64,000 nucleotides of DNA, taken from NCBI GenBank assembly GCA_002633005.1, contig NMRA01000228.1, positions 496,242-560,241 of the forward strand, written 5' to 3'. Below are positions 8,167 to 64,000 of the stretch, piece after piece. Positions within the stretch are counted from its first letter, which is position 1. Every line of letters starts with the position of its first letter. Origin of the DNA: Phoronis australis. Taxonomy: Eukaryota; Animalia; Phoronida. The notes below the pieces were generated by a model. The model searched no databases, was not told the DNA's origin, and worked only from the letters and a program-made list of their open reading frames with translations. A program made the position numbers and the translations under genes.

Positions 8167-9330
8167 GAGAGAGAGAGAGAGAGGTTGTTTATTGCACTTG
8201 GAGCTAAGCTCATTTGTACATATTACATTGCAACATTTGGTATAGGTGGCAATTTCACGTCCGGGTATTCAATACATATATACATATTTACACGTTACAA
8301 TGTTAGAGTTTCCTGTCTAATACCATAAGCCTTTAATATAAATAAGGATAGTCTTTTCAAAAGATTTCCAGAGTTTGTTTTGAATAAGTATTTGACGTTT
8401 TCGATGTCTGTATGCTGTCGGGATATTTCTGGTAAAAAATTCTTTCTAATGTCGTTAAATACGGGGCAGTTAAGTAATAAGTGTATTTCGTCTTCAATTT
8501 CTGAACGGTTGCAAATTTCGCAAAGTCTATCTTCCTTTGGAATGTCATGGTGCCTACCAGTTTCTATTTTCAGTTGGTGTCCAGAGCACCTGAATTTGGC
8601 TAAAATTCTACGTAGAGTTGGTGGTAGACTGTAAAGATATTCTTCACAAGATAAATCTGTTTTGATAATAGAGTAAAATGAGCACTTGCTAGAGCTCTGC
8701 ACTGATGTCCTCCATTCTTGGGCACCACAATCCAACAATCTTTGCTTAAATTCTGATATAAATAAATCAAAGTTACCCGGTCCACTTATCCATACCTCCC
8801 CAAACCCGTATCTGAACAAAATATCTTTAACTGCACTGGCCCAATTTGCTCGTCCTTTTTCACAGTCTTCCCGCAGCATCCTGTAACTTTTCTTTGGGTA
8901 TCTGGGGTTATTCATCTGTAGAATTTTGGTCCAGTAGATTATTGGTCTGCACAAGTATTTCACAGATAATAAATGCCTGCCGCATTCTCCTCTGGCCATA
9001 ACGTTACTTGTTTTCTTTGGGACACCAGCAACCCATTTACAGAAATCATTGTGAACACTTTCTATGTCTTTCGAATATACTGTACCCCATATCTCAGCAC
9101 CATATAACAATATAGGAGCTACCATACTATCAAACAATTTAAAACATACATGCGGGGATTTACAATTCACTTAAGTTAAACATGCTTTTAACATGTTCAT
9201 TGCTTTTCTAGCTTGTAAAGCTGATATTCTACAATTTTCATTCCATTTTAATCTGCAAGAAAATGTCACACCAAGGTACTTGTAATAAGATTTCGTTTCT
9301 ACCTATTTCTTATTGTAGAACCACCGTTCT
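8167..9330 (-). mobile_element. 5'-truncated non-LTR retrotransposon (RTE-X/L2-CR1-like ORF2 C-terminus)
   Basis: ORF 8295-9170 contains ILLYGAEIWG, KFRCSGHQLKIETGRH and the RLCEIC...EDEIHLLLNC Cys/His motif. The upstream frame has YKYLG (end of RT). The 3' end has AATAAA followed by a (CT)n tail. Flanked by the 8-bp direct repeat TGGCATTT (8159-8166, 9331-9338). Confidence 0.88.
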
Positions 9331-25500: not shown

Positions 25501-28500
25501 TCTGAAACTTGCCGTCATCTGTGGTCAGCTATATAGGAACACATCCACCAAATTTAACAAACATCCTACAAAGGATATACAGCCGTCAACGCAAAAAAGC
25601 AAAAATCATCACTAGGAAGAATACCAAGTACAAAAACTTCCGAAAATCAATGTTAGTCACAGTTTTCTCGTCAGAAAAACATCTGCCAATTTTCACAATG
25701 ACAATTTTCACAATGATCCTTTGTGCCGTTTGGCGAATAGAGAGACAGATGCAAAAAAAAACGGATTCAGTGTTCTCCACGACCACTTTTAACGTGTCGC
25801 AGTGTCCTGTTTGGCCGAGCGCGCATCTTGTTTAAATGTCCCGCGTCCTGTTTAAAATCCAGCGTCCTGTTTAAAAATCCCGCGACCAGTTTAAAAATAT
25901 AGGGACTACTTTGTAAAAAAGGCGTCATGGTCGTTAATAAGTTCTTCACTGGTTCAAATTATGTTTGACAGCAACTGGCCATAGCCCATTGAAACTGAAC
26001 AAAGGCCAAGCCTAAGGAAGTCGGTGCTCCGTAGTGGACAGCCTAATCACCGGACTCACTCAAGCGGCAGACCGGGCCACAAGTCTATTTATGACGTAAC
26101 GCGGCGTGTAAATAATCTCTCGATTATCTTTTCAATTCATCCCGAACAACTAGTCAATTTAAACAAAGGCCCAGTGCTACCTATACGCCTAATCCACTAC
26201 CTGCTCACTGGAGGTGCAGTCTGGCACGAAAGTCGCTGATCATTGCGTTAGGCCTTTTCACTTTTGTAGTCACCTTTTTGTGCTCGGCGGAGAACTAATC
26301 ATATTACCCATTGAAAATAAAATAATTAAGCCTCGGTGGTTAGTTCTGCAAAGTATATGTTGTCAGCAAAGACACCATTGCACAGCACTTTATGCAACGG
26401 CCGTCTTCTGGGAGGCCAGAATTTTGGTTTTCGTAGCACATTTTTCAATATTCCGTGGGACCCACGACAGACTTTACTGATGCCAGTCTCAAAAACATTT
26501 GCATGAAACTGCCTTTGATGGTTCTCATTGGTTGTTGTTTGTGTATTTCTCACTTAGATGAATATTATTGGTTACTTTTTGTGCCACCGGCCCATCTCGT
26601 TGCCTTTTAAGGAGTTTCGTTTTCAGCATGAACATTATGTTTGTGGCGCATACTCCCTCTAAAAATCTGCTGAGCCGTTCGCAAACTCAACTTCGATAGT
26701 GGCTTTGACGTTTGCGGTTTCGGGGGAGTATTCCGAGAATTGGGACAGCGGGTGACGTCACTGAGTAAAGTTCAAAGTATATGTGTTTCGCGCTGAGAAA
26801 TTGCAGCCAAAATTACGTGCTCTCGTTGAAATCAAGCGGTAATATCTCGCGTAATCTCGCAGAGTTTTGTTTACCCAGCTTGGTCCTTACGTTAGTGAAT
26901 CCTATCCTGACTTCCGTTACCAATTGACATGCGCATTCTACATACTTAGAAATGTCGTCTGCCGCGTGAAAGCGAAGCGCCGCTAAACCTAAGGATTATT
27001 TTAAAAACCGAGAGATGTTTCAGATACTGACGTTGACTCAGATGCAGATACGACAGATAATCCAGGGCTGGATGGTGGTGATATTGCCGGGCTCAGTCAA
27101 CGAATCGAAGATATCCGTGTCACAAACGTTGAACCGAATTTTTGCCGACAACGTCAGACATCGGCAACACAAATGAATACAATTCGCTCTAACATGAGAA
27201 TAGATGGTTTTCATCTGGAAGAATGAGTTTGTGACAATCCAGAAAATTGTGGGAATTCCATAGTTGCAAGCGTTTGATAATTTAGTTGATATCTTTTTGG
27301 AAATATTGGTTGTCATCAACAGGCCTGACACTCCCGTCCAAGTAGGCCTAGATGGAAAACGCAAGTGAATTGTTTTGTTTACCCTACCTAATTTGCATTC
27401 AAGGGTGACTCGCGTATTGTGCACTTTTTACAAGAGTTCTGGTAGTGCAAAAGTGCAAAATGTTGTTCCAGCTTCAGAACATCGAATTCAGACTGTAAGA
27501 ATGTGCAAGATATTACATGTACAGACTGCTATCAAGACATAAAAATGTGACTGACTTAACAAAGACACTTCACTTGGACTGTCTACGTCATAGGAAAGGT
27601 TTACTTCTGTGTTTGTACTTAGTTGACATTGACATCATTATTGAGTAGCCTAAAACATTTCCCCATACTGTATCAAACACTCTGTAGACTTCCATTTCAA
27701 AGTCATTGACTAAACAAATGGGTTATGACATATGTGATATGTTTGTAAATAAGTCCAACTTTTAAAAATAAAAATAAAAAGTTGAATACACACAGTTATT
27801 TGTTTGCACTACTGTGCATTACTATTAAAATGTGTGGGTAAAAATAAGGTGCACAAAAAACTGCACACTACCTTATGGAGAACGTTGACCGCCACGCGGT
27901 TCCGGCACGTTGCAGTTTTTACGCGTGCGACCTGTTTAGATTTTCAGATGTGGAGAACACTGGAATTAAATATTTTAAAAGTGCCCACTAGGGGGCAGAG
28001 AATCAAATATATCCGAAATTCAAAAGGTGTTGTGACCTCCTTAATAGCTACCTATTTGTTAAATTTCATAAAAAAACAATCCAGGAACTCCAAAGATACA
28101 GAAGCAAACTTAAACAAGAGCAACGCAGAGCGTTGAAATGCGCCCATGAATGCATTGCAAATGGTGTGCTTTTAGGGTTATTTATTTATATCATAAAAAT
28201 GGCCACTAGATGGCGCAAAAACGTACAGTCCATCCAAAAACAGGAACATGCCATATTTCATAAAAATCTGTCAAGGAACTTCAGAGAAGCAAAGGAAAAC
28301 AGAATAAAATGAAATTGCCACTAGTGGGCACAGTGTCCGTTGGATCTGCCTGAAAGTTGTCGTCGTCGTCGTCGTCTGTTGTTATCTTCATATAAAAACA
28401 CTTACTAAATTTAATAAAGATCCTGCAGTGGGTTTAGGAGAAACAGCTAAGACTATGGGCGCAAAACAAAACAAAACTACCACTAGGAGGCGCCAGAGTA

Positions 28501-31500
28501 GTCAGTCCCCATCATCAAGTGTCCTCTTCACACTGAGAACATTTACGCCAATTTTCAAAACCATCCCTAGAATGATTTGGTTGATACAGGGGTGGACGCC
28601 AAAAACAAGATTTGAAAACAGCAAAAATGGCCACTAGGTGGTGCAAAATACCTAGATTCCATCCAAGAACAGGAAGATAGCGTCATCACACCAATGGATG
28701 CCCGTATTTAAAATTCTATGAAAATCTATTGAGGACCTTTGAAGATACAGAGTTAAACGTAAAAAACTAAAATTGCCACTAGGGGCACACCAGTAGTCAG
28801 ATCTGTCCGAAAGTCGTCGTCATCCGTAGTCAACATCATATAAATACAAAAAAACTGCCACTAGGAGGCACCTCAGTAGTCAAAGTCGTCAGAAAATCAT
28901 CGTCACTCGTCCACTTCATAGTAAAAACATACATGCCAATTTTCACAATTACCCTGAAAACCGTTTGGTTGATAGATGAGTGGACGTCAAAAAACAAACT
29001 CGAAAACAGTAAAAATGGCCACTAGGTGGCGCAAACTACGTCGAATTCATCTGAAAACGGAGAGATAGCCTCACCTCATTAAAAGATGCTTATACGCCAA
29101 ATTTTATAAAAATATGTTGAGGAGCTTTGAAGATGCAAAGGTAAACGTAAAAAAACTAAAATGGCCACTAGATGGCACATCAGTAGTCAGGTAAGTCCGA
29201 AAGTCATCGCCATCTGTTGTTAACATCATATAAATATACTTACTAAATTTCGTAAAGATCCTGCGAATAGTTTAGGAGATACAGCCATAGATGCAAAAAA
29301 ACAAAACTGCCACTAGGAAGCGCCACAGTAGTCGAAGTCATCGGGAAATAATCGTCAGACGTCCACTTTATAGTAAGAACATATGTGTCAATTTTCACAA
29401 TCATCATTTGAGCGGTTTGGTTGACAGAGGGGTGGACGCAAAAAAACATACTCAAGAACAGTAGAAACGGCCACTAGGTGGTGCAAACTATGTTGAATCC
29501 ATCCGAAAACGGGAGGATAGTGTCATCTCACTAATAAGTGCCTACATACTAAATTTCATGAAAATCCATTAGGGACTTTTGAAGATACAAATGTAAGCAT
29601 AAAAAACTAAAATTGCCACTAGGGGGCACACCGGTTGTCGGATCCGTCCGAAAGTTCGCTCATGCCGTCCTATTCACGGAGGGAACATATGTGCAAAATT
29701 TCACGAACATACCTCAAGGGGTTTTGGAGATAGAGCAGCGGACGCCAGACGGACGGACGCAGATGACGGCATGTGTCCACATAAACATGTGGGCGCATAA
29801 AAACTAAAATTGCCACAAGGGCACACAGTAGTACTCTGATCAGAAGTCATCTGTTATCAGCTTCCTAGGAACACTTCTGCCAAATCTCATTAAGATCCGG
29901 CAACGGGTTTAAGAAATACAGCAGTGGACACCCGATGCCAAAATGTTGGCAATATGCACCCACATATAAATATGTGGGCGCATAATAAAAGGTGATGAAT
30001 CTCATACCCTGTTCATTAACTGGCTAAAATGAAAGCGTTTCCGTTAGCACTTTTGCTAGAAGTGAAAATGCTAGTAATGTAAACGGTGACAATGAAAATT
30101 GTCAAAAATGCAGCAAAACAATTTAATAATCCTGTAAACCGAAGTACTGGCGGTGCTCAAACTTTAAAAAGTATTTTGCTACTTTAAAGTACTGGGTTTA
30201 CTTTTAAACCATTCTAAAACAAGACACTCACAACAGCAACATCCCCTGCCGAAGGTCTGAGAAGGGACTGCACACAGAAAAGCAATTCCTCAGATGGATT
30301 TGTGAATTGGCAAAAATTTAAGAAAACACAGCCAAATGATGATTTGCACTGGGGTACTTGGTAAGGATACCAGTTTAAGAGGTTTGGTGGAAATCAGAAA
30401 AATGTAGGAGAGTTGTGCACAGTTATATGGATGCATGGAAATAAAAAAATGGGCTAAAATTCAAGAAAATTCAGTCAAACCGCAAAATGCTGAAGATGTG
30501 TACCATAGCACTTCGAAAAGAAACGTGTTTGAAAATTAGGTCGAAATCTCCTGCCAAATCCAGGAGAGCGGCCAAAATTCAGGAAATTATGGTCAAAGCA
30601 CATATTAGTGCAATGATACCCACTATGGTGCCTCCCAAGTATACTTTTTGAAATATGGTTAAAAGTGGCGCACAGAATAAGAGTATTATCCTCTGCATGG
30701 ACTCCTAGCGCTACTACATCCCCTTGACCTTCTCCTAGTAAGGTAGTCCAAGAATTCATACCCTTACAAATAGATGATTTTTTGAAGACAGTCATTTCGT
30801 AAGACAAACAACTGTAGACTAAATTTTCTAGAACTCCATCAAGCAGTATGAACAAATATCATTAGATAACCAAGCATAGACAGTTAAGTTAAAACTGTTG
30901 AAAGTAGGGTAAGCTGCAGTAGGAGCCATTTCAAAATTGACATCTGAGAGTAATTTGTGCCAAAGTTGAAAAGAAAGATATACAATGTAATACCATAGAT
31001 CAGGCAAGCAAGTAGCTGATGTTTGCCCACTTGATGAAAAGCTACAAAGGGTGCTCATTATTTCAAACATTGTCACTTGAAGGAATTCAAACTAGGGCTA
31101 AAAGTACCTCCTGTGAGGGCAGCACTAAACAATGCTTATATGCAAAAACAGGTGGGGTCTAGTGCAGTGTTCTGCATAACCTGATGCGATTCGTTGTGGC
31201 AGCAAGTCTGGATTTTGCTGTTATGAGTTTGGCTTGCCTGTGTCAAGTTGGAGAGACAATGCCACAAGTGTGAACTCATAAGGAGATCTGTAATCTCTTC
31301 AGCAAAATGGACCACTTTGGATGTTTGACACCAGTTTCAAGGCTTTGAATACAAACATATCATCAGAGTTAGAACACAATCTTTGAACATGTTGACTTAA
31401 TGAACTGTACTGTTGTTGAGTTTGTATTTTCTGTATCTTTTTTCCATAAAAAGAAGACAACATGAATTTTATGAATTTCAACTAATAGTTTTAGCACATG

Positions 31501-37500: not shown

Positions 37501-40500
37501 AGCAGCAAGATGGCATTGTGGTAGCCATTTTTCACTATTTTGATTTGACACAACAGTTGGAGGAAAAAATGCTGCTGCGATTGGTTGTCCTGATTCTTCA
37601 TAGCCTGTATAAACCAGTAAGTACTCATCACTCGAGATCAGCAACGTAACATCTCGTCAGACAGTGTTTGCAGGTGTTCTAATTTGACAGCTAATTGACT
37701 AGTAGTAGGGTTGCTGTTTTGATGTTTTGGTGAATTTTGATATGGAAATGGTGGTTTTAAGCACTTGATGGTTTATCATTTACTATGCGTTGTTGGTGTA
37801 ACACTGTAATAGGTGTCAGGGTTGTGGTCGTTAATGTTCTTGTTTTCATCGTCGATTTCATAGTTTATTCAGTTTCGCCCAAGTGTAGCTAATCAGAGCG
37901 TTTTCATTTGCCTGGTTCTCTATATCAGGGCTAGGCAATTACATTGTCCTGGATGCCGCAGAATTTGTAAACAATGGCTTAGAGCAATCAGATCATTCAG
38001 AATCTGTCACATGATCACTTCTCTCAAACTGCAAAACTCGAGTCACAAAATAGAACACAAAAAATGTCAAAATAAATTGAAGTACACAAAAGGCAATTTA
38101 AAACACATTGCAGTAACGAAAATAGCATTTTGTATCCCGTTTCGGCGGCACATAGAAAATCGCACTCAGGCAGTAAGGCCTCGCTTAGCAGCCAACGGCA
38201 ACTGGCGTGCATGTGGGATCAAACAAAAGAATTCCATACATCACTCACATCTCACGATTCCAATCCAACGAATAACCGGTTACGGTTGAATTTCCTTTCA
38301 GGAAAAAATTGTTATATCTAGTGTTTCATCGTTTTCAGTCGGTCCTCTGACTCCAACTTAGTCCAAGGCGACTCGCCCACACACTCCATAATTGTTCCTC
38401 TCTCAAAGTTTACAGAGCACAAACCTCAACTTATGTTGTTTATGAAGACATTGACCGTTTCTTTTATCCACCTTTTCCAGGAAATATTCTGTCTACTCCA
38501 CAGTCCACGCATTTTTTACCACAGAATCGCACTATTTGTCACTGCGATTTGATACCATTGATGAACCACGCTATCCCAGCCATAGGCACTTGAATTTATC
38601 TGTTACTCGATTGCCTCTGACGTCACTCACTACTAAGAAAACATGTTTCTTATATATGGTTACGAGTAATCGGGAAATTCGAGCGCCTGTGATCCGCAAT
38701 TACAATTTTCGTTCCTCCGAAACATAAAGAGCAGTTTCCGCTTTTCGAGTCGTCGGCAAGGCCGCGGTGAGAAACCAATTTGCCTCGACAATTTTAAGGC
38801 AAATCTAATTTTTCCACGGAAGTATAACGAAAATATGCAGAGGGAATAAAAGAAAAAAGCAGAAATCCGCGTTTCTGTGATAAATTCCAAGCCTTGCTTA
38901 AGTCTGGAGACAATTCAGTCAAGATAACTCGAACAAATCAAAAATCTGTCGCGGTTTACTAGAGTTTCTCCTACCAGGTGCCATTTTGAGGAAGTTACGT
39001 GAAATCACGCATGTTGACGAATAAAAAGTCCAAGGGACACAAATCTTACAAATTTCACCTGATACCTTTCCATGCTATTTTGCAAGTGTCACGCGCTAGC
39101 GTCAGAGCTTTATGCAGGATTTCGAAAATAGGGTTTCCAAAACAGGGTTCCCAATATTCCAGGGCGTCCGTGATTCCAACCACGCATTACCCCCACTCCC
39201 GCCTCGCCCCCACACAGTGAGACTTTTTACAAACAAGAGCAACGTAGAGCGTTGAAATGCGCCCACAATTGCACCGTATACGGTATCCTTCTATGGTTGT
39301 TTATTGGTACCATAAAGTGGCCAGTAGAGGGCATATATGTAGTATGTTGTACTTTGCAAAATGGAAAGGCATGGTCATTGTCTCCTCAATAGGCTAGGTT
39401 TCAAAATGTGAGTGATCTTCATAATACAAGCACATCCTATGCATCAGTTGCTTAAAGCACCACAGAAACATAGAATTAAAAACAAATTTACCAACATACG
39501 AGATTAGCACAGCATTAGAATGCCAGAAACAAATTTCTACTTGGAACTTTTCCTTCATAGTCACGAAGTAACACAAAGTATACACCTGAAGACCTATGAA
39601 AATACAGAGGTCAATGTNNNNNNNNNNNNNNNNNNNNNNNNNNNNNNNNNNNNNNNNNNNNNNNNNNNNNNNNNNNNNNNNNNNNNNNNNNNNNNNNNNN
39701 NNNNNNNNNNNNNNNNNNNNNNNNNNNNNNNNNNNNNNNNNNNNNNNNNNNNNNNNNNNNNNNNNNNNNNNNNNNNNNNNNNNNNNNNNNNNNNNNNNNN
39801 NNNNNNNNNNNNNNNNNNNNNNNNNNNNNNNNNNNNNNNNNNNNNNNNNNNNNNNNNNNNNNNNNNNNNNNNNNNNNNNNNNNNNNNNNNNNNNNNNNNN
39901 NNNNNNNNNNNNNNNNNNNNNNNNNNNNNNNNNNNNNNNNNNNNNNNNNNNNNNNNNNNNNNNNNNNNNNNNNNNNNNNNNNNNNNNNNNNNNNNNNNNN
40001 NNNNNNNNNNNNNNNNNNNNNNNNNNNNNNNNNNNNNNNNNNNNNNNNNNNNNNNNAAAACAAAACTGCCACTAGGAGGCGCCACAGTAGTCGAAATCGT
40101 CGGAAAATCATCGTCAACCGTCCTCTACATAGTAAGCATATACATGCCAATTTTCACAATCATCCTTTGAGCGGTTTGGTTGATAGAGGGGTGGACGCAC
40201 AAAAACACACTCGAAAACACTAAAAATGGCCACTAGGTGGCGCAAACTATGTCGAATCCATCTGAAAACGGGAGGATAGCGTTATCTCACTAATAAGTGC
40301 TTACATAGCAAATTTCATGAAAATCCGTTCAGGACTTTTGAAGATACAAAGGTAAGCGTAAAAAACTAAAATTGCCACTAGGGGGCGGACCGGTAGTCGG
40401 ATCCGTCCGAAAGTTTGCACATGCCGTCCCATTCATGAATGGAACATATGTGCCAAATTTCATGAACATATATCAAAGGGTTTTGGAGATAGAGCAGCGG

Positions 40501-43067
40501 ACGCCGAACGCCAGACGCCGGACAGACGCCGCCCGTACGGACGGACGGAGATGACGGCATAATGCGTCCACATATAAATATGTGGGCGCATAAAAATGCA
40601 TTGAACAAGGCTTTTACACCTAAGTTTACAAAAACAGCTCTCTTTTAGTGAGCTTTTTACTGAAAAAACTGTGTGGATCAAGACTTTTACGTCTAAATTA
40701 ACATAAACAGCCAAACAGCTTACCAAACAGGTATTACACATATTGGTTGAACGATGAGTGCAAATTGCTGTTATAAAGTTTATCATATCATCTTAACTAG
40801 CTTTATATTCAGTACAAAGAGCCATCAAAGCTGCAGTTACCAACACAAGAAATATGCACAGATGATGTGTGGTTTACATTTTGGCAACAGGAGTCACTCC
40901 TGCTCCATATTAAGACGCACATAGAAAAGCACGAAACGGGCGCAAACTCAAAACATTTTAAATGGGGATATTCTTGTGGCACATCATATTATTAAAATAA
41001 TGACATTTATTTTGCTCCTAATGTTTTTTAAAAAAGATGAAACTACACCTCTGAAACACCAGTTTGGAGTTAACCAAGGTTGGTGTCCATGTATAAAATA
41101 CTGAATTGCAGTGAGATATAAGACCACTGAAAGCAGAGACACTCTGGCAACCAAACCCTGCTAATTATTGACAGGTCTACTAAATACTTTGAAAATAGTT
41201 TGAATATTGCAACATTTTATATACATTGTATATTTATTTCTGAGCTGAAAGGGCCAACTTCTCTCTTTCATTAACTGGGAGTCCTAGTAATCGTACAATG
41301 TGGGTGTCCAAAGCAGAGAAATTCTGATCGACAGGGCGTCCAAATGATACATTGGGCGGCCTTGCCAGGGTGTCCAGATTAGTGCCAGGACCAATGCTGC
41401 ATGAAGGCCTGCCTCCCGTTCAGTAACGCTAGGACCTCCCTAAAAAGCAAGACTTCACGAGATTACGTGAGATGTTGCCGTGCATTTTAAATGAGAACAC
41501 GTGACTTTGACTAGGTTTTAGCTAGGTCCTAGCGTAGGTAATCGCGTCTACTGAACGCACGCCAGGCTAGCGTCACGCGCTTCACTGCCTCGCTCTAGCC
41601 TTTGCCTGACTCACGTCACTCAGTTGACATACTTTGTGGTTATCGTGCACGTAGTGCTGCAAAAGTTAACAGCAACCAAAAAAGTGAAGTTCTCACAATT
41701 AAGCTTCATCAAAGATATTTCTAGAAGTAGAAAGGACCAATGAAGAAAGTAAGCGCTTTTTTAAAGTGATAGTTTTAAGTGTGGAATGTATTTTTGACAA
41801 GGTAAAAACTCAAAATCGGTGGCCGGATTTGGCCTACCGTCCGTTTAGGTAATTGTTTATAATAAGACGACATTGACTTACACATGATTTTGGTATTGTT
41901 GGATTCCTTGCAACGTTATCTTTCCAAAAATACACAGAAATTTTTCCTACCCCGCTCCCTTAGTATTTTATAGTGAAATTTCTTCTCGCACTATTTCCTG
42001 GTTCTCGGTAGTAATACCGCCATGTTGAATGGAAGGAGTCACCTGGTGGTCAAAAACCAAACTAATCTAGACTTCTGTAGATAGTCGCTTTTCATAAGTT
42101 CAAACTGACTGAGACCCGTCTATCCCCTGCCCGAGTTACAGTCCCAAGGGTTCGAATTCAATTCTATGGTGACCCTGGTATGCATCTTCTAGCAAGAATT
42201 TGCGAAAAAGCGGAGGTTGTTTTTGAGGTCCAAATTGGTGAAAAGGGTACCACTTCAGACAATTTCGTGGAAAAACGGACAAATGGGCAAATTTCTAATA
42301 AAAAATTGAAAGGTGAAATACTGCTCACTTGTTCCTCCATATGTTGAGGAAAACTTAAGCAGGAATCTCGCATGGGCAAACACCACTCACATTCAATGAT
42401 GCTGTTTCATTCATTAACAACAGGTGTCGCTGTAATCTTGAGTTATGGTGGTGTCAACCAGGAAATAGTGGGAACCAAAATTCGACAATAAAATACAGAG
42501 GTAATGCGGTAGGGATACATTCATATATTTCTGGAAAGATAATTTGCGTGGAATCGAATGATAACAAAATCATGTGCGTAGGTCAATATCGTCATATTGT
42601 AAACAATTAACCCCGTTTAAAATACATGGAACGAAATGAGTACAGAAAGCGATGGGAAGTATTGTATCCTCTAACCAGCCAACCGAGGCCGAGGGGCTCC
42701 GTGTTGCCTATATCAGGGACAGCTATCTCGGCTATTTCAGACGGTGAAGCTGTCAATGCCTTACCAAAACATCGTTACAAATGTCGGTGAGCTCTTTTTC
42801 GATCTTCTCTTTGTATCTTTTGGCCATTTCCTTCTTTTTGTCATTACTTTCGTTTTTCTGTTCGATGCTTGAAATAACCCTCCACGACGAACGCCGAGCA
42901 CCGACAACATTTTTGTAGGCAACAGAGAGCAGATTTCTTTCCTCGTTTTCAAGCATTTTTTTATGTTTGGTAACTTCTTTCATGGCATTCGCCATATCTT
43001 CATATCGCTCTGCTTGCTCAGCTAACTTTGCTCGCTGAACCATAAGCTCGTCTGAAGACGCATCCAT
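13470..43067 (-). CDS. 14-3-3zeta: 14-3-3 gene A, complete spliced model via proximal 3' cassette: join(43067-42765, 32364-32223, 17763-17600, 16398-16294, 13529-13470), 257 aa
   Basis: Five exons of 303+142+164+105+60 = 774 nt form an open frame from ATG to TGA. All introns are GT..AG with phases 0,1,0,0. Intron positions match vertebrate YWHAZ-type genes (coding exons 294/124/164/96/60). The exon 2-to-17763 junction is inferred, not shown by transcript data. Confidence 0.75.
13720..14067 (+). mobile_element. Fragments of HINE/DINE-1-like element (nested 5' end at ~13909)
   Basis: Matches the monomer sequence (ACATGCCAATTTTCACAATTATCC) and the 5' end (GCAACGTGGAGCTTTGAAATGTGCC...GGCCACTAGATGGCGC) of the fuller copies. 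Confidence 0.7.
14070..15968. mobile_element. Tc2/pogo-like DNA transposon spanning an assembly gap; same family as ~7588-8040
   Basis: TA|CTGTATTCGCCATAATAACCGCCCA ... TGGGCGGTTGTTACAGCGAATACGG|TA. The left part is homologous to ~7590-7930. Confidence 0.72.
14533..15270. other. Assembly gap (further gaps: 20071-20100, 39618-40056, 43961-44003, 56413-56527)
   Basis: Runs of N. Confidence 0.99.
16294..16398 (-). CDS. 14-3-3 exon 4a
   Basis: Acceptor CCTTAG|GCG. Translates to [35 protein letters not shown] (C-terminal 14-3-3 signature). Donor AGT|GTAAGT. 105 nt. Confidence 0.94.
17600..17763 (-). CDS. 14-3-3 exon 3a (divergent proximal copy)
   Basis: Acceptor TTTTTAG|GC. Translates to (G)[54 protein letters not shown]. 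Donor AAG|GTAAGC. Exactly 164 nt. Read manually; not in the ORF track. Confidence 0.93.
22656..22950. mobile_element. Small Tc1/mariner-type MITE
   Basis: Inverted ends CGGTAAAAATTCTCCAAT / ATTGGAGAACTTTTACTG, with repeated internal AATTTGGGACA. Confidence 0.6.
25768..27962. mobile_element. 2.2-kb DNA transposon derivative with 13-bp perfect TIRs (hAT-like CAG ends)
   Basis: CAGTGTTCTCCAC (25768-25780) / GTGGAGAACACTG (27950-27962). The host HINE monomer resumes on both sides. No clean 8-bp TSD. Confidence 0.7.
28112..29802 (+). mobile_element. Full-length HINE/DINE-1-like non-autonomous Helentron with internal tandem array
   Basis: 5' end AACAAGAGCAACG..TTGAAATGCGCCCA, then ~11 monomers each containing (G/A)CCACTAG, a GACG/GGAC microsatellite, and the 3' hairpin ...GTGGGCGCATAAAA. 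Inserted in an A run without a TSD. Confidence 0.8.
32223..32364 (-). CDS. 14-3-3zeta: 14-3-3 gene A coding exon 2
   Basis: Acceptor CCACAG|GAT. Translates to [47 protein letters not shown] plus one G. Donor G|GTGAGT. 142 nt, phase 1. Confidence 0.95.
34642..35099. mobile_element. hAT-family MITE with 8-bp TSD
   Basis: TIRs are CAGGCCTT(C)ATGCAG / CTGGATAAAGGCCTG. Perfect target duplication CCAAGCAG at 34634-34641 and 35100-35107. Confidence 0.85.
39103..41411. mobile_element. Second, inverted copy of the 34642-35099 hAT MITE, split by a HINE insertion
   Basis: 39103-39230, ~40595-40670 and ~41330-41411 are reverse-complement homologous to successive parts of 34642-35099. Confidence 0.7.
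39231..40594 (+). mobile_element. HINE/DINE-1-like copy (contains assembly gap)
   Basis: 5' end AAACAAGAGCAACGTAGAGCGTTGAAATGCGCCCAC. The subterminal IR ATGCGCCCAC (39257-39266) pairs with GTGGGCGCAT. Hairpin ATGCGTCCACATAT-AA-ATATGTGGGCGCAT at 40562-40591, preceded by an ACGG microsatellite. Confidence 0.82.
41849..42611. mobile_element. Degenerate foldback element with ~155-bp inverted arms in gene A intron 1
   Basis: TAATTGTTTATAAT...CACATGATTTT...CACTATTTCCTGGTT (41850-42003) pairs with AACCAGGAAATAGTG...AAAATCATGTG...ATTGTAAACAATTA (42456-42609). Confidence 0.65.
42765..43067 (-). CDS. 14-3-3zeta: 14-3-3 gene A coding exon 1 (non-epsilon/zeta-like)
   Basis: Translates to [26 protein letters not shown]...[29 protein letters not shown]...ICNDVL, which contains the 14-3-3 signature. 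303 nt, ending TTG|GTAAGG (phase-0 donor). Confidence 0.96.
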
Positions 43068-46000
43068 TTCGCTAGTGAATAACGAAAAGCACCCCTCCAA
43101 ATTTTCAGGAATCGAGACCGGACAGATTTCCACTGCGCACTAATATTCGCGCATTCTCACGAGACGGTGTGTTTTTCAAAAACGCCAGACGTCTCGCTAC
43201 GCGCTTAGTCTCAAACCCAGCGTCTAAAATGATAAAAGACGGAGTAATTTGGCGGACAGAAACATAACATAAATAATTGAAACCAATAATTTATTTAGCT
43301 TCTTACTCAATTTAGAGGATTAGCCTGAAATTTATATTGAATATGAAAAGGAGACAAACATCGCTGTCACAGCGCTACCTATTCGCTCGCTGGTTCCCTG
43401 CGTGCCGCTAGCCAGCGTGCTGGCTAGGCACTGTAGTAGGGGACCAGCGAGTAGCTATTCGTAGCAACAAAGACTACTCGCTGGTTACCTGCGTGCCGCT
43501 TGGTGGTAGCCAGCACGTGATGGCTAGGCACGTACGTAGGGAACCAGCGAACAAAGGCTAATGAACATTTATCCCATTGGCCAACGATGGTCTTTGGCAG
43601 CGGCACGCAGTGAGCGCTGATCGAGGCCGCCTCCCGACCTCCCGCCAATTCGGCCGGGTGCTATGCGCATCTACAATCGTGGTTCAGTTTGCGCAAATGC
43701 TTACAGCCGGACAAAATGTTGGGCCCCCCTTGTGATATCAGTCCTAGATCCACCACTGCAGGGGGTTCAAACCCCCCCCGGGACAGGATCAGAAATAAAA
43801 ATTGAAAAAATTCACCAGAAAAAAACGAAATCAGCTACTAAAAACTACAAAAAAAATCTTACACGGGAGGGGGTAACTCTCCCGACCCAGTTCCCGTTCA
43901 GCGCGCGGCGCTATGCGCCGCCTCCGATTCGCTCGAATGATTTTTATCCCCCCCCCCCCCNNNNNNNNNNNNNNNNNNNNNNNNNNNNNNNNNNNNNNNN
44001 NNNCCCCCCCCCCCCCTTACTGAAAATGTAGATCTGCCACTGTTACATTCTGGCGTGTATGGTTGGAGGGCCAGCTCTCTTTTGTTGATAATTTGCTCAA
44101 ATCTCCAATAAGATCGTAAGCCTGACTGGGCTGTGCTGTTAGATAAGTTAAGTTATAACATGTTTGAACATAAACCAAGAGCATTTCTGAAATGCTCCTC
44201 AAAAGGTGATGAGGTTTAATTTTTGAGTCTCCAAAATCACCCAACTACAACCGAAGTTACGACAATTCTTTCACTGACAACCCTCTACATCTGGTAAAGT
44301 CACTGAACGGGAAAACCCCGTCATGTTCGGCCTCGTGGTACGCTACACCAAACATTGATATGAAGTTACAGTTAATGCATCAGCTCCTGGCTTAGAAAAG
44401 AGCCTTAAAAATAATGACAATGAACTAACACTACTTTCCTGATACAAATCTGATTTTCAAATTATTAAAAATATCAGTCTACTTGATACATCCTACCCTA
44501 CTTGAAAATATTGAATTTATTTTTACACAAAACCTTCCACATTATGCCTATATATGATCAGTATTTAAAAAATTGCAAGCACGATAACCGAAAGAGTAAA
44601 AAATTCTCGTTCACCAGATTTTTAGAAAACTGTTCTGTTATCCCACAACAAACCATGGCCGTAGGAAGCGAGGTGGGGACGCACGGGCCCCCCAAAAAAA
44701 TTTCAGGCATCAGGGTTAAACCGTGACAACCGACATAGGCGTGGGGGCGAGGACAGCCGAAAAAAGAAAGACTGCGAAATATGGATAAGAGAGAAAATTC
44801 AAGAGAACATTTAACAACTCTGCATCAGTGCATGGTTTACCTTCTGTGGACCCTGGCCAGGACATTGTCGTTAGGGTCTCCGCTTTTGCAGCACAGGTCG
44901 ACTAAACGCACTTGAAAACGCGTACGAAATCAATCATACATATATTTCGAAAAATCGAGAAAATTTGTAAAGCGAAGCTTTCGCGGAGCGCACTAATTTA
45001 CTGGATTTTAAATTTCAATAAGTCAATTTTGCGAATGCAAAACTATATTTTCCAGATGCCTTTCTCAGGCAAGGGATAAAGGAGACAACTTTTGCTTTAT
45101 TTCTCTCTCGAAACTGTATATTATTTGAGAAAAAAATGATGACCTGACATGTAACATCAATTGCTGCGCATTTCTAGCCAGCCAGCTAGCTGTCTGAAGA
45201 CTGTCGTCAAAATATATTTAGTATACAGCTTTGTACCAAGACTAGCGCATTTCCTGATATTTGAGAATGTAGATATTTTCATATTTAGGGGCCCCGCCCT
45301 TGAAGGAGACCATTGGTGACCTTTTTGGGTTTTTATTGACAAATTCCTAAGAGGCCGCTCACGGAGAGAGGTCCCAATGTTGGAATCGATTACCTCTATT
45401 TTCCTGCTTTTTGTGAAATCGTGCAACCGGCTTTCATGTTGAAGGAGGTCACTCCCTGCCTCGTTTTGGGACCACACGACGGTGGAATGCACTGTCACCC
45501 TTTTTCAAAGCTTAATGATGTTTAGCCTTTCATCTATTGTCCCATTTTAGACGGTACCCTCTCCATCTGTGGAGCAGTTCGGGGAAATTCCCTTTGCCCC
45601 TTTATACATGTAAATCCGACACTGCCAAGTATTCACGGTAGAAACTGAGATTCCAAATTCATCAAAAAACAAAACATTCGTGCACAGCACAGACATTCGA
45701 CCCAAACAACTAAAAATGTGAAAAAAATACAGTAGGATTGCCGCCATCAATGAGGGTGGCATGTTGAAGAATGTGAAGACCACTATTTGTGAATAACACA
45801 AAAGGTCTTCCGATCGTGAGTTATAAAGTAGTGTTTCTGTTACCCGTAGTACCAAGAGAATAGTATATCTTTTAAAGATGGTTACTAATAGTCATTTATA
45901 AAGAATTCTCGCATGTGCAAAACACAAGGCTACTATTTGTGATGAAAGTGTACATGTCGAAAAGGAGTACTCAAAGAACTCTCGCAATCATCAACAAAGA

Positions 46001-47671
46001 TTTCAGCGTTAACCTCGTGACCCGTTACAGGCACCTATAAAATGACCAGAATACACCTTAATACGAATGCCCCATCTCCCATTCACTCGGTTACCCGTCA
46101 AAAGTGTGCAAGTATGCATGCGGAAATTGCTTTTAGCATTTCGATTTCATAAACAAATTCGTTGGTTTCTGATGTTTATGCATTAATGAAAATCGATAGG
46201 TTCATAAATGATTTTTGACAATCAGAAGCTAATTTTGTAAGAATTGATGATGTTTCAGTGAATGTAATTGCAGTCTGAAGTTGGAAAAACTCTATAATCC
46301 GATCCCCAAATAGTAAAGTACACTTATAGACGATTTTTGGATATCTAAAATAACTCTCAAAGATTGATGAAATTCGGATTCACAAACCGTAGATAGAAAA
46401 AACGTTTTAAAAATCCTCAAATAAATAAAATCAAACTCATTGCTTGGAAAGATTGTCTTTGCAATTCCTTGGTGTATTTAGTTTCCATTAGTATTAAGCA
46501 ATGAATTTTTGTTCTTCAAAATGTAATTGATTGCTTGTCTTGATTTGCGTGCACGTCATGACTGACGTACCCACGCTAAAAATAAGATGCACCCTGCTGT
46601 AAGCCCGGCGCGCAGAATCTCAGTGATCCATGGGAACTGCATTTGAATTCCAGGCGTTCAGGAAGTGTGACAGGGACACACTATCCTTTTCTCCAGCCAC
46701 CACAAACTGGATTACCGGTCGTGTTTCAACTAGGCATTTTGAAACAGTCCCAAAGGCACTATACCAGGGGCTTCGGGACCTCACCGTTTCAAAAAAACTC
46801 CTTCAAAGAATGGCCATAATAAAATATTTTTTCCCGAAACTGGATCACAATAAAACGAATCTTGACTGTAGAGCGAGCGCAGACGACCGGTACGAGCTGC
46901 CTGTCTCAAGTGAATCACAGCTGAGCTGACCAACAACTATAGCTTTAATTCATCGAGAATTTCGTATTTTCACAGCTATGGTGAGTCTTCGCTACCAGTT
47001 AGTGTACTAGTCCTGGGCCCTTTCTTACTCTCCGTGTTAGTTCACGGTTACTCAACTCTTGATGCCTTCATCCCCGCGGGATTGCCCCAGGGGCGAACAG
47101 CAGGATTTTGAGTTGGGGGGCGCCGGGGGGGGGGGGGGGGNGCAGGGCAGAGTATGATCCACAAGGGAGTTTATCCGTCAGAAATTCGCACCCTCGAACT
47201 GCAAACAAATGGAATCTGGGAGAATTTTACGGGGGTCATGGCCCCTTGGCCATCCCTAAATCCGTCACTGTGCCACCCACAGCCGCTAGGGTGGTCGTGT
47301 GTTCTCTACCACCTAGTGACACGCAGGGAACCAGCGAGCTTGACTACCAGCGTGCCCAACCCGTCGTATGCCACGTGACTTGTTATTATGTGCAGCGCTA
47401 CCTTTTGGCGGTAAAGCCTTCTTTTGCAAGCTAAGAACAGCTCTGATTGGTTGTCAATCAAATGTGCGACAACGGTTATTCGCTAGCAGCAGCAGCAGCA
47501 GCCTTTCTCATTCATATGGTAATGAATGCAATCTGTACGAGAACGCTTGACCCGTTTATTGTAAGCACAGCGAATTCCCGGGCTTTTAGTCACAGGTGTG
47601 GTTGATATAGTCGAAAGATTGTCATCCTTACTGAAGTGTTCATTTTTTCCGTGTGATAGTTTCAACTAAAG
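43068..47671. promoter_or_regulatory. Divergent (head-to-head) promoter region between the two 14-3-3 genes
   Basis: Lies between opposite-facing ATGs and is locally CpG-richer near both starts. Contains CTGATTGG (reverse CCAAT box) at ~47443, TCTCACGAGA (one mismatch from the TCTCGCGAGA promoter palindrome) at 43155-43164, and a shared 19-nt motif upstream of both genes. TSSs not determined. Confidence 0.5.
43625..43759 (-). repeat. Dispersed repeat end (CAGTGGYGGATCT-type MITE terminus); second copy at 55702-55830 (+)
   Basis: Reverse-complement homology over ~130 bp, including GGGGCCCAACATTTTGTCCGG...TGTAGATGCGCATAGCACC. Confidence 0.7.
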
Positions 47672-47959: not shown

Positions 47960-49745
47960 GTAGGGCTATGACTATTTGCCGAGTGATATTGATGTATGAC
48001 TGCTATGTTGATCTGTTTTATTGATCTTATTTTCGTTTCAGAGTCGCTGGTTAATGTCATTCATGTGTAGGTCCCTCTTTTATTTATCAAAGACTTGCCA
48101 TTCTTCTGGCTCTACTAAAATTAACGTGTATTTGATAATAAGATAGGCCTACATGTCATCCTGGGTAATTTATCTGTTGAATTATTCAATAAGTCTCCCC
48201 ATCACATGATTAGTAGGCCTATTCATAGCATGATAGACGTTTTTGTCTTTTGACTTACACAGCTCTGCTATGTTCTTATTCTGTTTCAAGGACATTCGGG
48301 GTTTTTTAAAGGGGAAAACAAGCTTTAGCAGTGTCCTCTTTTGATTAAATTATGATTTTCTGGTAATGTTAGAGATAAATTAATTAAAATCCTCTGGGTT
48401 CTTATCAATGACAGTTGTCACTAAAAAATGTCCCATTATTCAGTGGAAAAGGTTATCAAATTGCAGGGCCCCTTTAAGTGCTGGCGTCCACTGATGATTG
48501 AATACCCCATAAATACTTGCTCATTTCAAAATACAGCGAATATAGTCAACTGAAGCATGTATATACATACACAGCTAGCTGTATGAAGACTATTGTATTT
48601 AGTATACTGCTTTGCGCCAAGGCTAATACATACACTGAGCTATCACATACCATGACGCTAGAGACAATTCTGGTATTCCGCACTCCTCTTCTTCGCGGCA
48701 GTGAAGTAAAATTGTACTTGTAGCAAGTGTTGCCAGATCACTCCACTCAGTTTCTTGTTGTGGCCTAACTGGCGTGATCTCAACTGAAATACTTCTGGTT
48801 ATCATGCGCAGTGAAGAAGATAACGGTGACCAAAAAGGTAGAGATGAAATTCTTGGCCAAAGTAATCTTAGTAGAGATGCTTCATAGTAGATATGAATAG
48901 AACCAGAAAGGATCGCTGAAGAATGTGTACACTTTTTGTAAGTGACAATTTTTAATGAAAAGTATATTTTTGATGAGGTGAAAACCTCTTATTTGGTGGC
49001 TAGAGTTGGGCTACTGCAATACTCCTCATTTAAAATACATGGGTATGAGAATAGTACAAAAACCAATGGGGAGCATTGTTGCCCCTGTACAGCCAGCAGA
49101 GATAGTATGTGTTGCGCATGTAGACAGTACTAGTGTCTCAACTGGCTCTAATATACAGTAACCATCCCATAGGGCCGCCCTACACCGGAAGCTTATCGGC
49201 CATTTATTCCTCATACTAATTAAACCCTCGGTTTTGTTGCTATAAGTATATTTTGTGCATAGAGTAACACCTTAGGAGGCCTTTGATGTCTTTAACTCTT
49301 CCCAGCTTGAACAAATAAGTAGTTATCAAACTTTTTTGAACAGTCCTTCGTTCAGTTGCCCAAATTGGCATGTACAAAAGTGTTCCAAACAGGCCAGTTT
49401 GTGAATTACTTGCGTGTTTCCAAAAAATAAATCATCTCTACATCAAATTTGTTTTCATATATCAGTGCTCTGCACGACCTGTTTTGACTCGTGGCACTTA
49501 GCCCCTGAGAATTTAGTTACCTTGTTTGAATCATCATGCATGGAGGTAAGAGTCAATTCAGCTCTCCTGTAACAAAGAAGGCATCGGAATTTTCACATTT
49601 GCAACAGGTTTTGTTTGTGTGTGGCTATTTTAACCAAGTTCCATGATTAATGGTCATGAAATTTTTACAAATAATTTTATCAAAAAGGTAGCAGCACTTG
49701 CTTCCTTTCGGATGGTTCTGAGTTATGCTGTGCTTGCAGTGGCCT

Positions 49746-51459
49746 TTTTATGTGCTCACTTATTTATATGTGGTCGCATATTGCCGTCATCCCTGTCTGG
49801 GCGTCCGTCGTCCGGCATCCATAGTTGTATCTCCTAAACCCCTCGCAGGATCTTGATGAGATATGTCAGATATGTTCCTATCAAGCTGACGACGGATGAC
49901 AACGAATTTCGTACCTCTCCGACTACTGATGTGCCCCCTATTGGCAATTTCAGTTTTTTAAGCTTCGGGTGTCCTTGACGGATTTTCATAAAATTTGGCA
50001 GTTAGACATTTATTAGTGAGATGATGCCATCCTCTCGTTTTTGGATGGATTTGAGCTACTTGGCGCCACTTAGTGGCCATTTTTTATTGTTTTCTAGTCA
50101 TCCACCCTTTTATCATCCAAACTGCTCTAGGGATGATTTTGAAAATTTGCATTTAAAATCAGTTCTTACTGTGAAGACGGTGGCTGATGATGATTTTCCG
50201 CCGACTTCGACTACTGTGGCGCCTCCTAGTGGCAGTTTTGTTTTTTGCGCCCATGACTGTATCTCCTAAACTGCTGGATCTTTACTAAATGTAGCAAGTA
50301 TATTTATATGATGTTGACAATGGACGATGACGACTTTCGCACAGATCGGACTTCTTGTGTGTACCCTAGTGACAATTTAATTTTTTACATTTACCGTATC
50401 TTCAAAGGTCCTCAACATGAAATTTGGCATATAGGCATCTATTAGTGAGGTGACGATATTCTCCCGTTTTCAGATGGATTCGAAGTAATTTGCACCACCT
50501 AGTGGCCATTTTTACTGTTTTCGAGTCTGTTTTTGCCATACACCCCTCTATCAACCAAACCACTCTAAGGATGATTGTGAAAATTTGCATGTATGCTCTT
50601 ACTGTGAAGAAGATGGCTGACGATGATTTTCCTACTACTTCGAGTACTGTGGCGCCTCCTAGTGGCAGTTTTTTTTTTGCCCATGACTATATATCTCCTA
50701 AACTGTTTGCAGGATCTTTACTAAATGTAGCAAGTATTTTTATATGATGGTGACGACTTTCGCATGTATCTGACTTCCAGTGTGCCTCCTAGTGGCAATT
50801 TTAAATTTTTTTTACGTTTACCTCTGTATATTTAAAGGTCCCCAACGGAGTTTCACAAAATTTGGAATATAGGCATCTGTTGGTGAGATGACGCTATTCT
50901 CCTGTTTTTGGATTGATGGGAAGTATTTTGCATCACCTAGTGTCCATTTTTACTGTTTTCAAATCTGTTTTTTGGCGTACACCCCTCTATCAACAAACCA
51001 TTCTAAGGATGATTTTGAAAATCTGTATATATGTTCTCAGTGTGAAGAGGACGGTTGACAATGATGACTTAGACTACTGTGGCTCCTCCTAGTGGTAATT
51101 TTGTGTTGTTTTGTGCCCATAGCTGTAAACTCACTGCAGAATCTTTATTAAATATTAATAGTAAGTGTATTTATATGCAACTTACAATAGACGACTTTCA
51201 GGCAGACGCTGTGCTCCCTAGTGGCAATTTCATTTTTTCCGTTTTCCTTTGTATCTCTGACAATGATTGACAGATTTTTATGAAATTTTGGTAAATTAGA
51301 GCTTTCTATTAACGAAGCGATGGAATGTTCCGTTTTCAGATGGATTGAATGTTTTGCACCATCTAGTGGTCATATTTATGATACAAATGAACAACTCTAG
51401 AAACCAACCATTTGCGGTGCATTCGTGGACGCATTTCAACGCTCCACGTTGCTCTTGTT
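49746..51459 (-). mobile_element. Full-length HINE/DINE-1-like copy in gene B intron 1
   Basis: Reverse complement of the 28112-29802 architecture: hairpin at ~49750-49780, repeated CTAGTGGC monomers, and end ...CATTTCAACGCTCCACGTTGCTCTTGTT. Confidence 0.82.
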
Positions 51460-61597: not shown

Positions 61598-61652
61598 GTG
61601 TGCTCATTCTTCTTGTCTTGACCCAAGTTGGTCCTGGAATTTAAGAAATCAT

Positions 61653-62875: not shown

Positions 62876-64000
62876 TTATGCGCCCACATATTTATATGTG
62901 GACGCATTATGCCGTCATCTCTGTCTGTCCGTCCGGGCGGCGTCTGGCTTCCGGCGTCCGCTGCTTTATCTCCAAAACCCTTTGACATACGCTCATGAAA
63001 TTTGGCACATATGTTCCATTCATTAATGGGACGGCATGTGCGAACTTTTGGACAGATCCGACTACCGGTGTGCCCCCTAGTAGCAATTTTAGTTTTTTAC
63101 GCTTACCTTTGTATCTTCAAAAGTCCTGAACGGATTTTCATGAAATTTGGTATGTAGTCACCTATAAGTGAGATGATGCTATCCTCCCCTTTTCAGATGG
63201 ATTCGACATAGTTTGCGCCACCTAGTGGCCATTTTTAGTGTTTTCGAGTCTGTTTTTGTGCGTCCACTTCTCTATCAACCAAACCGCTCAGAGGATGATT
63301 GTGAAAATTGGCATGTATATGCTTACTATGTAGAGAACAGTTGACGATGATTTTCCGACGATTTCGACTACTGTAGCGCCTCCTAGTGGCAGTTTTGTTT
63401 TTTTGCGCCTATGGCTGTATCTCCTTAACCGTTCGCAGGATCTTTACGAAATTGTGTAAGTATATATATATGATGTTAACAACAAAAGATGACGACTTTT
63501 GGACGGATCTGACTACTGGTGTGCCCCCTAGTGGCAAGTTTAATTTTTTACGCTTACCTTTGTATCTTCAAAAGTTTTGAACGGATTTTCATGAAATTTG
63601 GTATGTAGTCACCTATAAGTGAGATGACGCTATCCTCCCATTTTCAGATGGATTCGACATAGTTTGTGCCACCTAGTGGCCATTTTTAGTGTTTTCGAGT
63701 CTGTTTTTGTGCGTCCACCCCTCTATCAACCAAACCGCTCAGAGGATGATTGTGAAAATTGGCATGTATATGCTTACCATGTAGAGGACGGTTGACGATG
63801 ATTTTCCGACGATTTTGACTACTGTGGCGCCTCCTAGTGGCAGTTTTGTTTTTTTGCGCCTATGGCTGTATCTCCTTAACCGTTCGCAGGATCTTTACGA
63901 AATTGTGTAAGTATATATATATGATGTTAACAACAAAAGATGACGACTTTTGGACGGATCTGACTACTGGTGTGCCCCCTAGTGGCAAGTTTAATTTTTT
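62876..64000 (-). mobile_element. Young HINE/DINE-1-like copy with 451-bp tandem higher-order repeat, running off the window
   Basis: Hairpin TATGCGCCCACATATTTATATGTGGACGCAT and GTCC microsatellite. Near-identical sequence recurs at +451 (63101/63552; 63361/63812). Confidence 0.85.

What the first reader, a model, noticed from the sequence alone, without database searches (positions are those of the whole stretch)
28112..29802. Helentron-type (HINE/DINE-1-like) element built from ~150-bp monomers, each carrying a CTCF-consensus-like motif
Seen: motifs GGCCACTAGATGGCGC (28201), ACCACTAGGAGGCGCC (~28479), GGCCACTAGGTGGTGC (~28630), GGCCACTAGGTGGCGC (~29018), GGCCACTAGATGGCAC (~29163), GGCCACTAGGTGGTGC (~29470) and TGCCACTAGGGGGCAC (~29614), mostly spaced 144-162 bp. 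Three diverged subunits form a ~451-bp higher-order unit (exact period at 63101/63552), and the motif is among the best-kept parts between subunits. The element has subterminal IRs, a 3' hairpin, an ACGG microsatellite and A/T-run insertion without TSD. Known: that layout is the DINE-1/HINE architecture, and the bilaterian CTCF core is CCACYAGRKGGCR. Inference: a rolling-circle element is dispersing co-oriented arrays of insulator sites at near-nucleosome spacing, i.e. a mobile boundary cassette.
Basis: partly seen in the sequence, partly recalled or inferred. Interest (0 to 1): 0.75.

Follow-up and report, generated by a model that had tools for sequence, protein, structure and literature searches.

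The report
Rolling-circle transposon preserving CTCF-type sites
A very common non-coding jumping element in a marine animal repeats a close match to the docking motif of the genome-folding protein CTCF every 150 bases, keeps that motif better than the rest of the repeat, and nearly always points the same way as the gene it sits in; the motif likely helps the element spread rather than building chromosome boundaries, but binding is untested.

Summary
28112-29803 is one copy of a high-copy DINE-1/HINE-type non-autonomous Helentron, nested without a target duplication inside an older copy. Its central array is an A-B-C higher-order repeat (145+145+161 bp). 9 of its 11 monomers match CCASYAGRKGGCR within one mismatch. 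The motif is the best-kept block between subunits (12 of 14 columns against 50 of 131), differs at the degenerate CTCF positions, and holds 0 of the 31 listed genome-wide polymorphic sites. Single copies still decay, so the constraint looks element-level, not host-level. Intronic motifs therefore point back at the promoter. The 'boundary cassette at nucleosome spacing' reading is unsupported: copies are intronic, about one per 5 kb, and this monomer size is usual for HINEs. Host phylum, a CTCF gene and binding are untested. The scan noted CTCF-motif repeats before on other DNA (foldback element, minisatellites), but none in a Helentron.

The parts
28112..29803 (-). Inner HINE/DINE-1-type element (E28), in intron 2 of a minus-strand 14-3-3 gene; element top strand = host sense strand
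   Evidence: Colinear with the copy at 49745-51459, with sharp ends; exon map
29770..29798 (-). 5' subTIR plus IR hairpin after a T-run (partly decayed in this copy)
   Evidence: Fold z -2.1 here, -4.8 and -4.5 in younger copies; subTIR pair
29737..29769 (-). Short degenerate GTCC/CCGT microsatellite
   Evidence: Seen in the sequence; longer in copies at 40500-40560 and 62910-62960
28180..29735 (-). Central array of 11 monomers, A-B-C higher-order repeat (145+145+161 bp)
28203..28216 (+). CTCF-type core, terminal A subunit (exact consensus match)
28318..28331 (+). CTCF-type core, B (1 mismatch)
28480..28493 (+). CTCF-type core, C (A at the G/T position, as in nearly all C subunits)
28631..28644 (+). 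CTCF-type core, A (CpG to TpG change)
28777..28789 (+). Broken core, B (1-bp deletion)
   Evidence: matrix score -13.4
28858..28871 (+). CTCF-type core, C
29019..29032 (+). CTCF-type core, A (exact match)
29165..29178 (+).
29310..29323 (+). CTCF-type core, C (2 mismatches)
29471..29484 (+). CTCF-type core, A (CpG to TpG change)
29616..29629 (+). CTCF-type core, B (exact match)
28112..28146 (-). 3' subTIR (28138-28146) and small 3' palindrome, ending in a T-run
27970..29993 (-). Older copy of the same family, split by E28 at the A-run of its A/B junction; has its own core at 27985 and its own 5' hairpin at 29955-29983
   Evidence: Profile hits: A monomer left (E 5e-15), B monomer and 5' end right (E 2e-18, 4e-27)
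49745..51459 (+). Full-length sister copy in intron 1 of the plus-strand 14-3-3 gene
62876..64000 (+). Young copy, cut by the window end; two HOR units 96% alike
39231..40599 (-). Copy with an assembly gap (3' end at 39231, C-A-B and 5' end after the gap)

Best explanation
This is a high-copy, non-coding, DINE-1/HINE-type element, likely moved by a Helentron rolling-circle transposase, whose three diverged central-repeat subunits each keep a CTCF-type core motif, likely because binding of host CTCF favours the copies that go on transposing. Shown: the architecture, the dispersal, T-run insertion without duplication, the extra conservation of the motif, and co-orientation with host transcription. 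Inferred: the bound protein is CTCF. Inferred: binding keeps donor copies open or unsilenced, so selection acts on the element lineage, while most inserted copies decay and do not act as boundaries. The orientation bias most likely has a cause apart from CTCF. One is loss or early termination of copies whose A-rich, poly(A)-signal-rich strand would be transcribed (about 0.45). Another is strand-specific insertion into the unpaired non-template strand during transcription (about 0.4). CTCF direction itself is about 0.15. Whatever the cause, the side effect is that intronic motifs point back at the promoter.
For: Between A, B and C the 14-bp core has 12 of 14 invariant columns against 50 of 131 elsewhere (Fisher P 0.0007; best-window permutation P 0.04). 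The 6 of 19 columns that differ are low-information columns of a recalled CTCF matrix (P 0.003), and the consensus sites score 0.93-0.95 relative, above 300 of 300 shuffles each. Among 17 monomers, non-CpG columns with a shared variant number 0 of 38 in cores against 35 of 373 outside (P 0.03). In genome-wide reads on one HOR unit, 0 of the 31 listed polymorphic positions fall in the three cores (P 0.016), and laid depth peaks over the motifs. Changes seen in cores are permitted by the consensus in 11 of 35 cases, against 15-19% expected (P 0.01-0.06). Private changes are only mildly reduced (10 of 212 against 164 of 2040; P 0.05), which fits lineage-level more than copy-level constraint. Schmidt et al. 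propose this survival advantage for CTCF-carrying retroelements (PMC3368268 section 16). Oyster HINE arrays show no such motif: 117 hits of six 8-mers in 3.37 million characters of supplement. Orientation: 8 of 8 exon-bracketed and 12 of 12 total insertions; RNA 33:1, 29:1, 126:1; poly(A)-signal-like hexamers 91 on the A-rich strand against 19 on the other.
Against: No binding data. The host phylum is unresolved, and CTCF is bilaterian-specific (PMC7535936 passages). The 14-3-3 exon shares some residues with a sea-anemone protein, so a host without CTCF is not excluded. The matrix is recalled, not from a tool. The C subunit carries a non-consensus A, and 6 of 15 A sites have CpG to TpG at position 12. 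In one search, 24 of 64 variant rows were hidden (5 of the 31 DNA-level places) and may include motif positions; cross-mapping between subunits can raise depth at the motif. Four gapped or decayed sites were left out, which flatters the permitted fraction. The motif window was chosen after it was seen. Copies are few and related. All three RNA runs come from one study, and only X10 was strand-calibrated directly. The canonical AATAAA count alone is only 8 against 4.
Confidence: 0.5

Rival explanations
1. The host uses the copies as boundaries or promoter-facing loop anchors, and selection on inserted copies keeps both the motif and the orientation.
For: All arrays in the window converge on the divergent 14-3-3 promoter region: forward at 2-41 kb, reverse at 50-64 kb. 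Private changes are somewhat fewer in cores (P 0.05). Repeat-spread CTCF sites can insulate in mammals (PMC3368268 abstract).
Against: 12.7% of the window is this family, about one insertion per 5 kb, too dense for boundaries. 22 of 29 single-site changes break the consensus. In human macrophages intragenic CTCF orientation is not specific (10.1101/746610 section 17). A 145-bp period leaves no room for a nucleosome plus CTCF at every unit (recalled sizes).
Confidence: 0.12
2. The kept block serves something other than CTCF, such as a site for the transposase or another zinc-finger protein, or a near-palindromic structure (GCCAC-N3-GTGGC in subunit A) used in copying the array; the likeness to CTCF is incidental.
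For: Subunit A is a perfect short inverted repeat. The conserved block extends into the upstream A-run. Host CTCF is unverified.
Against: B and C break the palindrome at the column where CTCF is degenerate. A chance match at p about 1e-8 to 1e-9 per site (recalled matrix) in exactly the best-kept block is unlikely. Oyster HINE arrays lack the motif, so it is not a general need of these elements.
Confidence: 0.22
3. An ancestral element captured one host CTCF site, and the site was then carried along neutrally; its apparent conservation is a product of small samples, conversion between subunits and alignment anchoring.
For: Best-window permutation P is only 0.03-0.04. In 8 foreign arrays, chosen for the motif, cores were only modestly or not at all better kept (for example 7 of 63 against 89 of 653 in L021, and 20 of 166 against 33 of 314 in L005).
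Against: Several partly independent measures agree. The subunits are 55% alike outside the core and 88% inside it, with no gradient beyond about 20 bp.
Confidence: 0.16

Closest known systems
DINE-1 / HINE non-autonomous Helentrons (PMC4067079, passages read)
   Same: Non-coding; subTIRs; 5' IR hairpin; microsatellite; central repeats; small 3' palindrome; T-run insertion without target modification.
   Different: SubTIR of 9-11 bp; three-subunit higher-order array; CTCF-type core in each monomer; no autonomous partner identified. No such 8-mers in the paper's 10 text supplements.
Cg_HINE elements with Cg170/HindIII central repeats, Pacific oyster (PMC7492417, passages and supplement search)
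   Same: Marine invertebrate; 140-180 bp monomers; GTCC-type microsatellite; fixed orientation of array to ends; conserved boxes between diverged monomers.
   Different: No enrichment of CTCF-core 8-mers in their arrays. The passages read report no higher-order repeat (term absent) and no orientation bias relative to genes.
Helitrons carrying clustered heat-shock elements in Caenorhabditis (PMC6927752, abstract and passages)
   Same: A rolling-circle element spreads clusters of one transcription-factor site.
   Different: Binding and gene effects are shown there; the factor here would be an architectural protein and binding is untested.
Retroelement-spread CTCF sites in mammals (PMC3368268, abstract, sections 8 and 16)
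   Same: A transposon disperses CTCF motifs; protection from silencing is proposed as the benefit.
   Different: There the carriers are retrotransposons and binding is shown; here it is a DNA element with about ten co-oriented cores per copy.

Membership tests
HINE / DINE-1-like non-autonomous Helentron | No coding capacity | tested here: met
   No stop-to-stop frame of 120 aa or more in 28112-29803; no Rfam match
HINE / DINE-1-like non-autonomous Helentron | Subterminal inverted repeats of about 11-15 bp, next to the 5' end and some tens of bases from the 3' end | tested here: met
   9 bp exact in E28, 11 bp between 39231 and 40599; at the short end of the published range
HINE / DINE-1-like non-autonomous Helentron | Short IR beside the 5' subTIR (hairpin) | tested here: met
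   z -4.8 and -4.5 in two young copies, -2.1 in E28
HINE / DINE-1-like non-autonomous Helentron | Microsatellite after the 5' end, then central tandem repeats | tested here: met
   GTCC-type run in 4 of 4 aligned ends; arrays
HINE / DINE-1-like non-autonomous Helentron | [quoted passage not shown] | tested here: inconclusive
   A 5-6 bp stem is the minimum-energy fold in 2 of 3 ends, but z is -1.85 and -0.68; the third folds otherwise
HINE / DINE-1-like non-autonomous Helentron | Insertion in T-runs without target-site duplication | tested here: met
   The nested insertion restores an intact A/B junction; 303 contigs and 858 reads with diverse flanks ending in TTT at 62876
HINE / DINE-1-like non-autonomous Helentron | Autonomous Helentron with the same ends | not testable with these tools
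   No genome is held
HINE / DINE-1-like non-autonomous Helentron | Similarity to the Drosophila DINE-1 core | not tested
   No reference sequence was in hand
Functional CTCF site or insulator | Match to the core consensus CCASYAGRKGGCRS | tested here: met
   Consensus as printed in PMC6746451; 13 of 40 ungapped sites exact, 32 of 40 within one mismatch
Functional CTCF site or insulator | Conservation above flanks, with change at degenerate columns | tested here: met
   strongest between subunits, weak for private changes
Functional CTCF site or insulator | Second (M2/upstream) motif at fixed spacing | not tested
   Optional in mammals (PMC3368268 section 8); no matrix was in hand
Functional CTCF site or insulator | Host encodes CTCF | tested here: inconclusive
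   Indirect only: 14-3-3 tree unresolved; the 3 named of 44 LINE relatives are bivalves
Functional CTCF site or insulator | Bound in vivo; insulates or anchors loops | not testable with these tools
   No ChIP, ATAC or Hi-C run was among the 12 listed

The most novel reading that the evidence does not exclude
A rolling-circle element has written thousands of arrays of bound CTCF sites into the introns of an invertebrate genome, almost all facing the promoter of the host gene, so that a transposon sets the directional code for gene-body-to-promoter loops genome-wide.
Probability: 0.13. Interest if true: 0.85.

Novelty: new variant of a known kind. Interest (0 to 1): 0.56.

Why it matters
Transposon-driven spread of CTCF sites is established in mammals. 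Whether it happens in invertebrates, and whether CTCF benefits the element or the host, is open. Here three long-diverged subunits, many subfamilies and thousands of copies of different age let element-level and host-level selection be told apart by computation and one binding assay. The 29-126:1 co-orientation with transcription is a separate, testable clue to how Helentrons choose their target strand or how hosts purge them; I did not find it described (listing; passages of PMC4224331 and PMC7492417).

Tried and rejected
No genome was held, so there was no CTCF gene search, copy count or autonomous partner search. Host taxon: two 14-3-3 exon searches (best 81% and 54%), a LINE search, cluster look-ups and a tree gave an animal but no phylum; the protein atlas gave no answer. 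The paired-motif pattern found 0 viral, 25 metagenome and 2 prokaryote-labelled loci. None is this family: only L021 has weak profile similarity beyond the motif (E 3e-4 to 0.013). These loci were selected for the motif and have no control scan, so they are not evidence of recurrence. Runs X8 and X9 (organisms B, C) gave 169 and 168 short low-depth contigs; carry-over cannot be told from a relative, so no claim of horizontal transfer is made. T-run targeting alone is rejected as the cause of the orientation bias: masked introns have only 273:197 and 164:133 T4:A4 runs, at most 24:9 for runs of six. Oligo-dT mispriming is rejected because it would favour the A-rich strand, which is the rare one. 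An internal promoter is not supported: no place where many molecules begin, and 858 reads run in from diverse flanks. Searches for prior print: Helentron+CTCF (1 paper listed, unrelated mention), Helitron+CTCF motif+tandem repeat (listing only), CTCF+DINE-1+insulator. None describes this; most subscription papers are not searched. Three papers asked for by recalled id were not held, so CTCF methylation rules and the Drosophila MSL-Helitron case remain recall and are not used as support. bioRxiv supplements were not consulted.
Full report
Setting. The window is from an animal. It holds two divergent 14-3-3 genes: A on the minus strand (exons 43067-42765, 32364-32221, 17764-17600, 16398-16291) and B on the plus strand (47678-47959, 61474-61605), plus an exon of a third at 1374-1210. 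No genome is held. The phylum is unresolved. A marine bilaterian is likely, but a cnidarian is not excluded.

The element. 28112-29803 aligns end to end with 49745-51459 and shares ends with copies at 39231-40599 and 62876 onward. Read on the minus strand it has a T-run, a subTIR with an IR hairpin (z -4.8 and -4.5 in young copies), a GTCC-type microsatellite, a central array, a second subTIR and a weak 3' palindrome. This is the DINE-1/HINE layout given in PMC4067079 and PMC7492417 (passages). The copy is nested. Its left flank is an A monomer and its right flank a B monomer plus 5' end of an older copy, and the insertion sits in the A-run of that junction with nothing else duplicated. In DNA run X1, 28,612 contigs lay on 61500-64000, with summed depth 0.25-1.2 million over the element against roughly 40-170 in unique flanks; 303 contigs leave it at 62876 into diverse flanks ending in TTT. 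The tool warns that this depth is no copy number, so thousands to tens of thousands of copies is an inference. The family covers 12.7% of the window; profile searches gave 0 hits on a reversed-window control.

The motif. The array is an A-B-C repeat of 145, 145 and 161 bp. Of 40 ungapped sites, 13 match CCASYAGRKGGCRS exactly and 32 within one mismatch (consensus printed in PMC6746451); four gapped or decayed sites were left out. Between subunit consensuses the core is 12 of 14 invariant against 50 of 131 elsewhere (P 0.0007; 0.04 after allowing for choice of window). With a CTCF matrix recalled from memory, the three sites score 0.93-0.95 relative and beat 300 of 300 shuffles each, and the six variable columns of 19 are low-information ones (P 0.003). 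Among 17 internal monomers (terminal units, short units and one of each near-identical pair dropped), mismatches at non-CpG sites are 10 of 195 in cores against 247 of 2057 outside. Columns with shared variants number 0 of 38 against 35 of 373, and private changes 10 of 212 against 164 of 2040 (P 0.05). Laying three runs on one unit (40057-40400) listed 40 of 64 variant rows. Against: hidden rows are mostly C>T and G>A and may include the motif's CpG; 6 of 15 A sites show that change; C carries a non-consensus A; and 22 of 29 single-site changes break the consensus. Overall 11 of 35 distinct changes are permitted, against 15-19% expected (P 0.01-0.06). The pattern is strong constraint among the lineages that were copied and weak constraint after insertion.

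Orientation. All 8 insertions bracketed by exons, and all 12 in the window, have their T-rich top strand on the sense strand of the local genes; transcription over the other four is presumed. AT skew flips sign with them. In stranded RNA, calibrated on the gene B exon (0 against 270 first mates), element reads run 33:1 in X10, and 29:1 and 126:1 in X11 and X12; these are three samples of one study, about a fifth of each run read. Most reads are under 95% alike to the local copy, and 858 enter from diverse flanks, so this is read-through from many loci, not an element promoter. Intron T-run skew is too weak to explain it. The disfavoured strand has 91 poly(A)-signal-like hexamers against 19 (AATAAA 8 against 4), which fits purging or early termination. 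Insertion into the unpaired non-template strand is an equally plausible inference from rolling-circle chemistry (own knowledge). The result is that motifs lie forward left of the shared promoter region and reverse right of it, the convergent arrangement linked to loops (PMC10013865 passages). Human intragenic sites show no such rule (10.1101/746610 section 17).

Mechanism. Most likely (0.5): a Helentron-mobilised HINE whose active lineages keep a CTCF core because binding protects or opens donor copies, the benefit proposed for mammalian retroelements (PMC3368268 section 16). Rivals: another protein or structure (0.22), neutral hitch-hiking (0.16), host boundary or loop anchor (0.12). The spacing argument carries no weight, since 140-180 bp is the usual HINE monomer size.

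Comparison. The kind is known, as are Helitrons carrying clustered factor sites (PMC6927752) and repeat-spread CTCF sites. [quoted passage not shown] Oyster HINE arrays lack the motif. Ten paper searches showed no Helentron with CTCF arrays and no such strand bias; 10.1101/2021.07.29.454218 and PMC4224331 passages added nothing. The scan's notes list CTCF-motif repeats in other genomes (unchecked) and nothing for this sequence or this genome. Verdict: a new variant of a known kind; interest 0.56.

Noticed in passing
window 1210-61605: Cluster of at least three diverged 14-3-3 genes, two head to head (first coding exons at 43067 minus and 47678 plus); gene B is only about 50% like known proteins.
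   Followed up: partly
window 1-64000: AT skew switches sign near 48 kb and GC skew near 54 kb, broadly matching the two transcription directions; part of it comes from the oriented elements (masked T/A only 1.11-1.14).
   Followed up: partly
window 28455-28463 and each monomer junction: A subTIR-like word followed by an A-run precedes the motif in the B/C and C/A junctions, and the nested insertion recreates such a junction; monomers may have arisen from joined element ends.
   Followed up: no
window 39321-39334: A diverged terminal subunit differs from the A core at five places; four are CTCF-permitted and the 13-bp consensus is still matched exactly.
   Followed up: yes
window 8295-9170 (-): 291-aa C-terminal fragment of a LINE reverse-transcriptase ORF; named relatives are from oyster and mussels (38-54% identity range of hits).
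   Followed up: partly
L005 438-942, L010 1-337, L013 957-1699, L015 2290-2967, L022 1163-1580: Unrelated 38-bp minisatellites in metagenome contigs consist largely of a CTCF-type core, 9-20 co-oriented copies each; selected by the pattern, no control scan.
   Followed up: partly
L021 260-1057, L007 378-791, L018 773-1244, L002 309-696: Other 146-158 bp arrays with one CTCF-type core per unit; L021 has weak profile similarity to the A and C subunits; L018 has the array in inverted arms.
   Followed up: partly
window 43355-43545 and 47320-47350: Related short inverted-repeat (MITE-like) sequences lie close upstream of both 14-3-3 start codons.
   Followed up: no
window 56528-56777 and 59644-59999: 41-bp and 11/22/68-bp minisatellites built on related TTGCGGCAAG-like words.
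   Followed up: no
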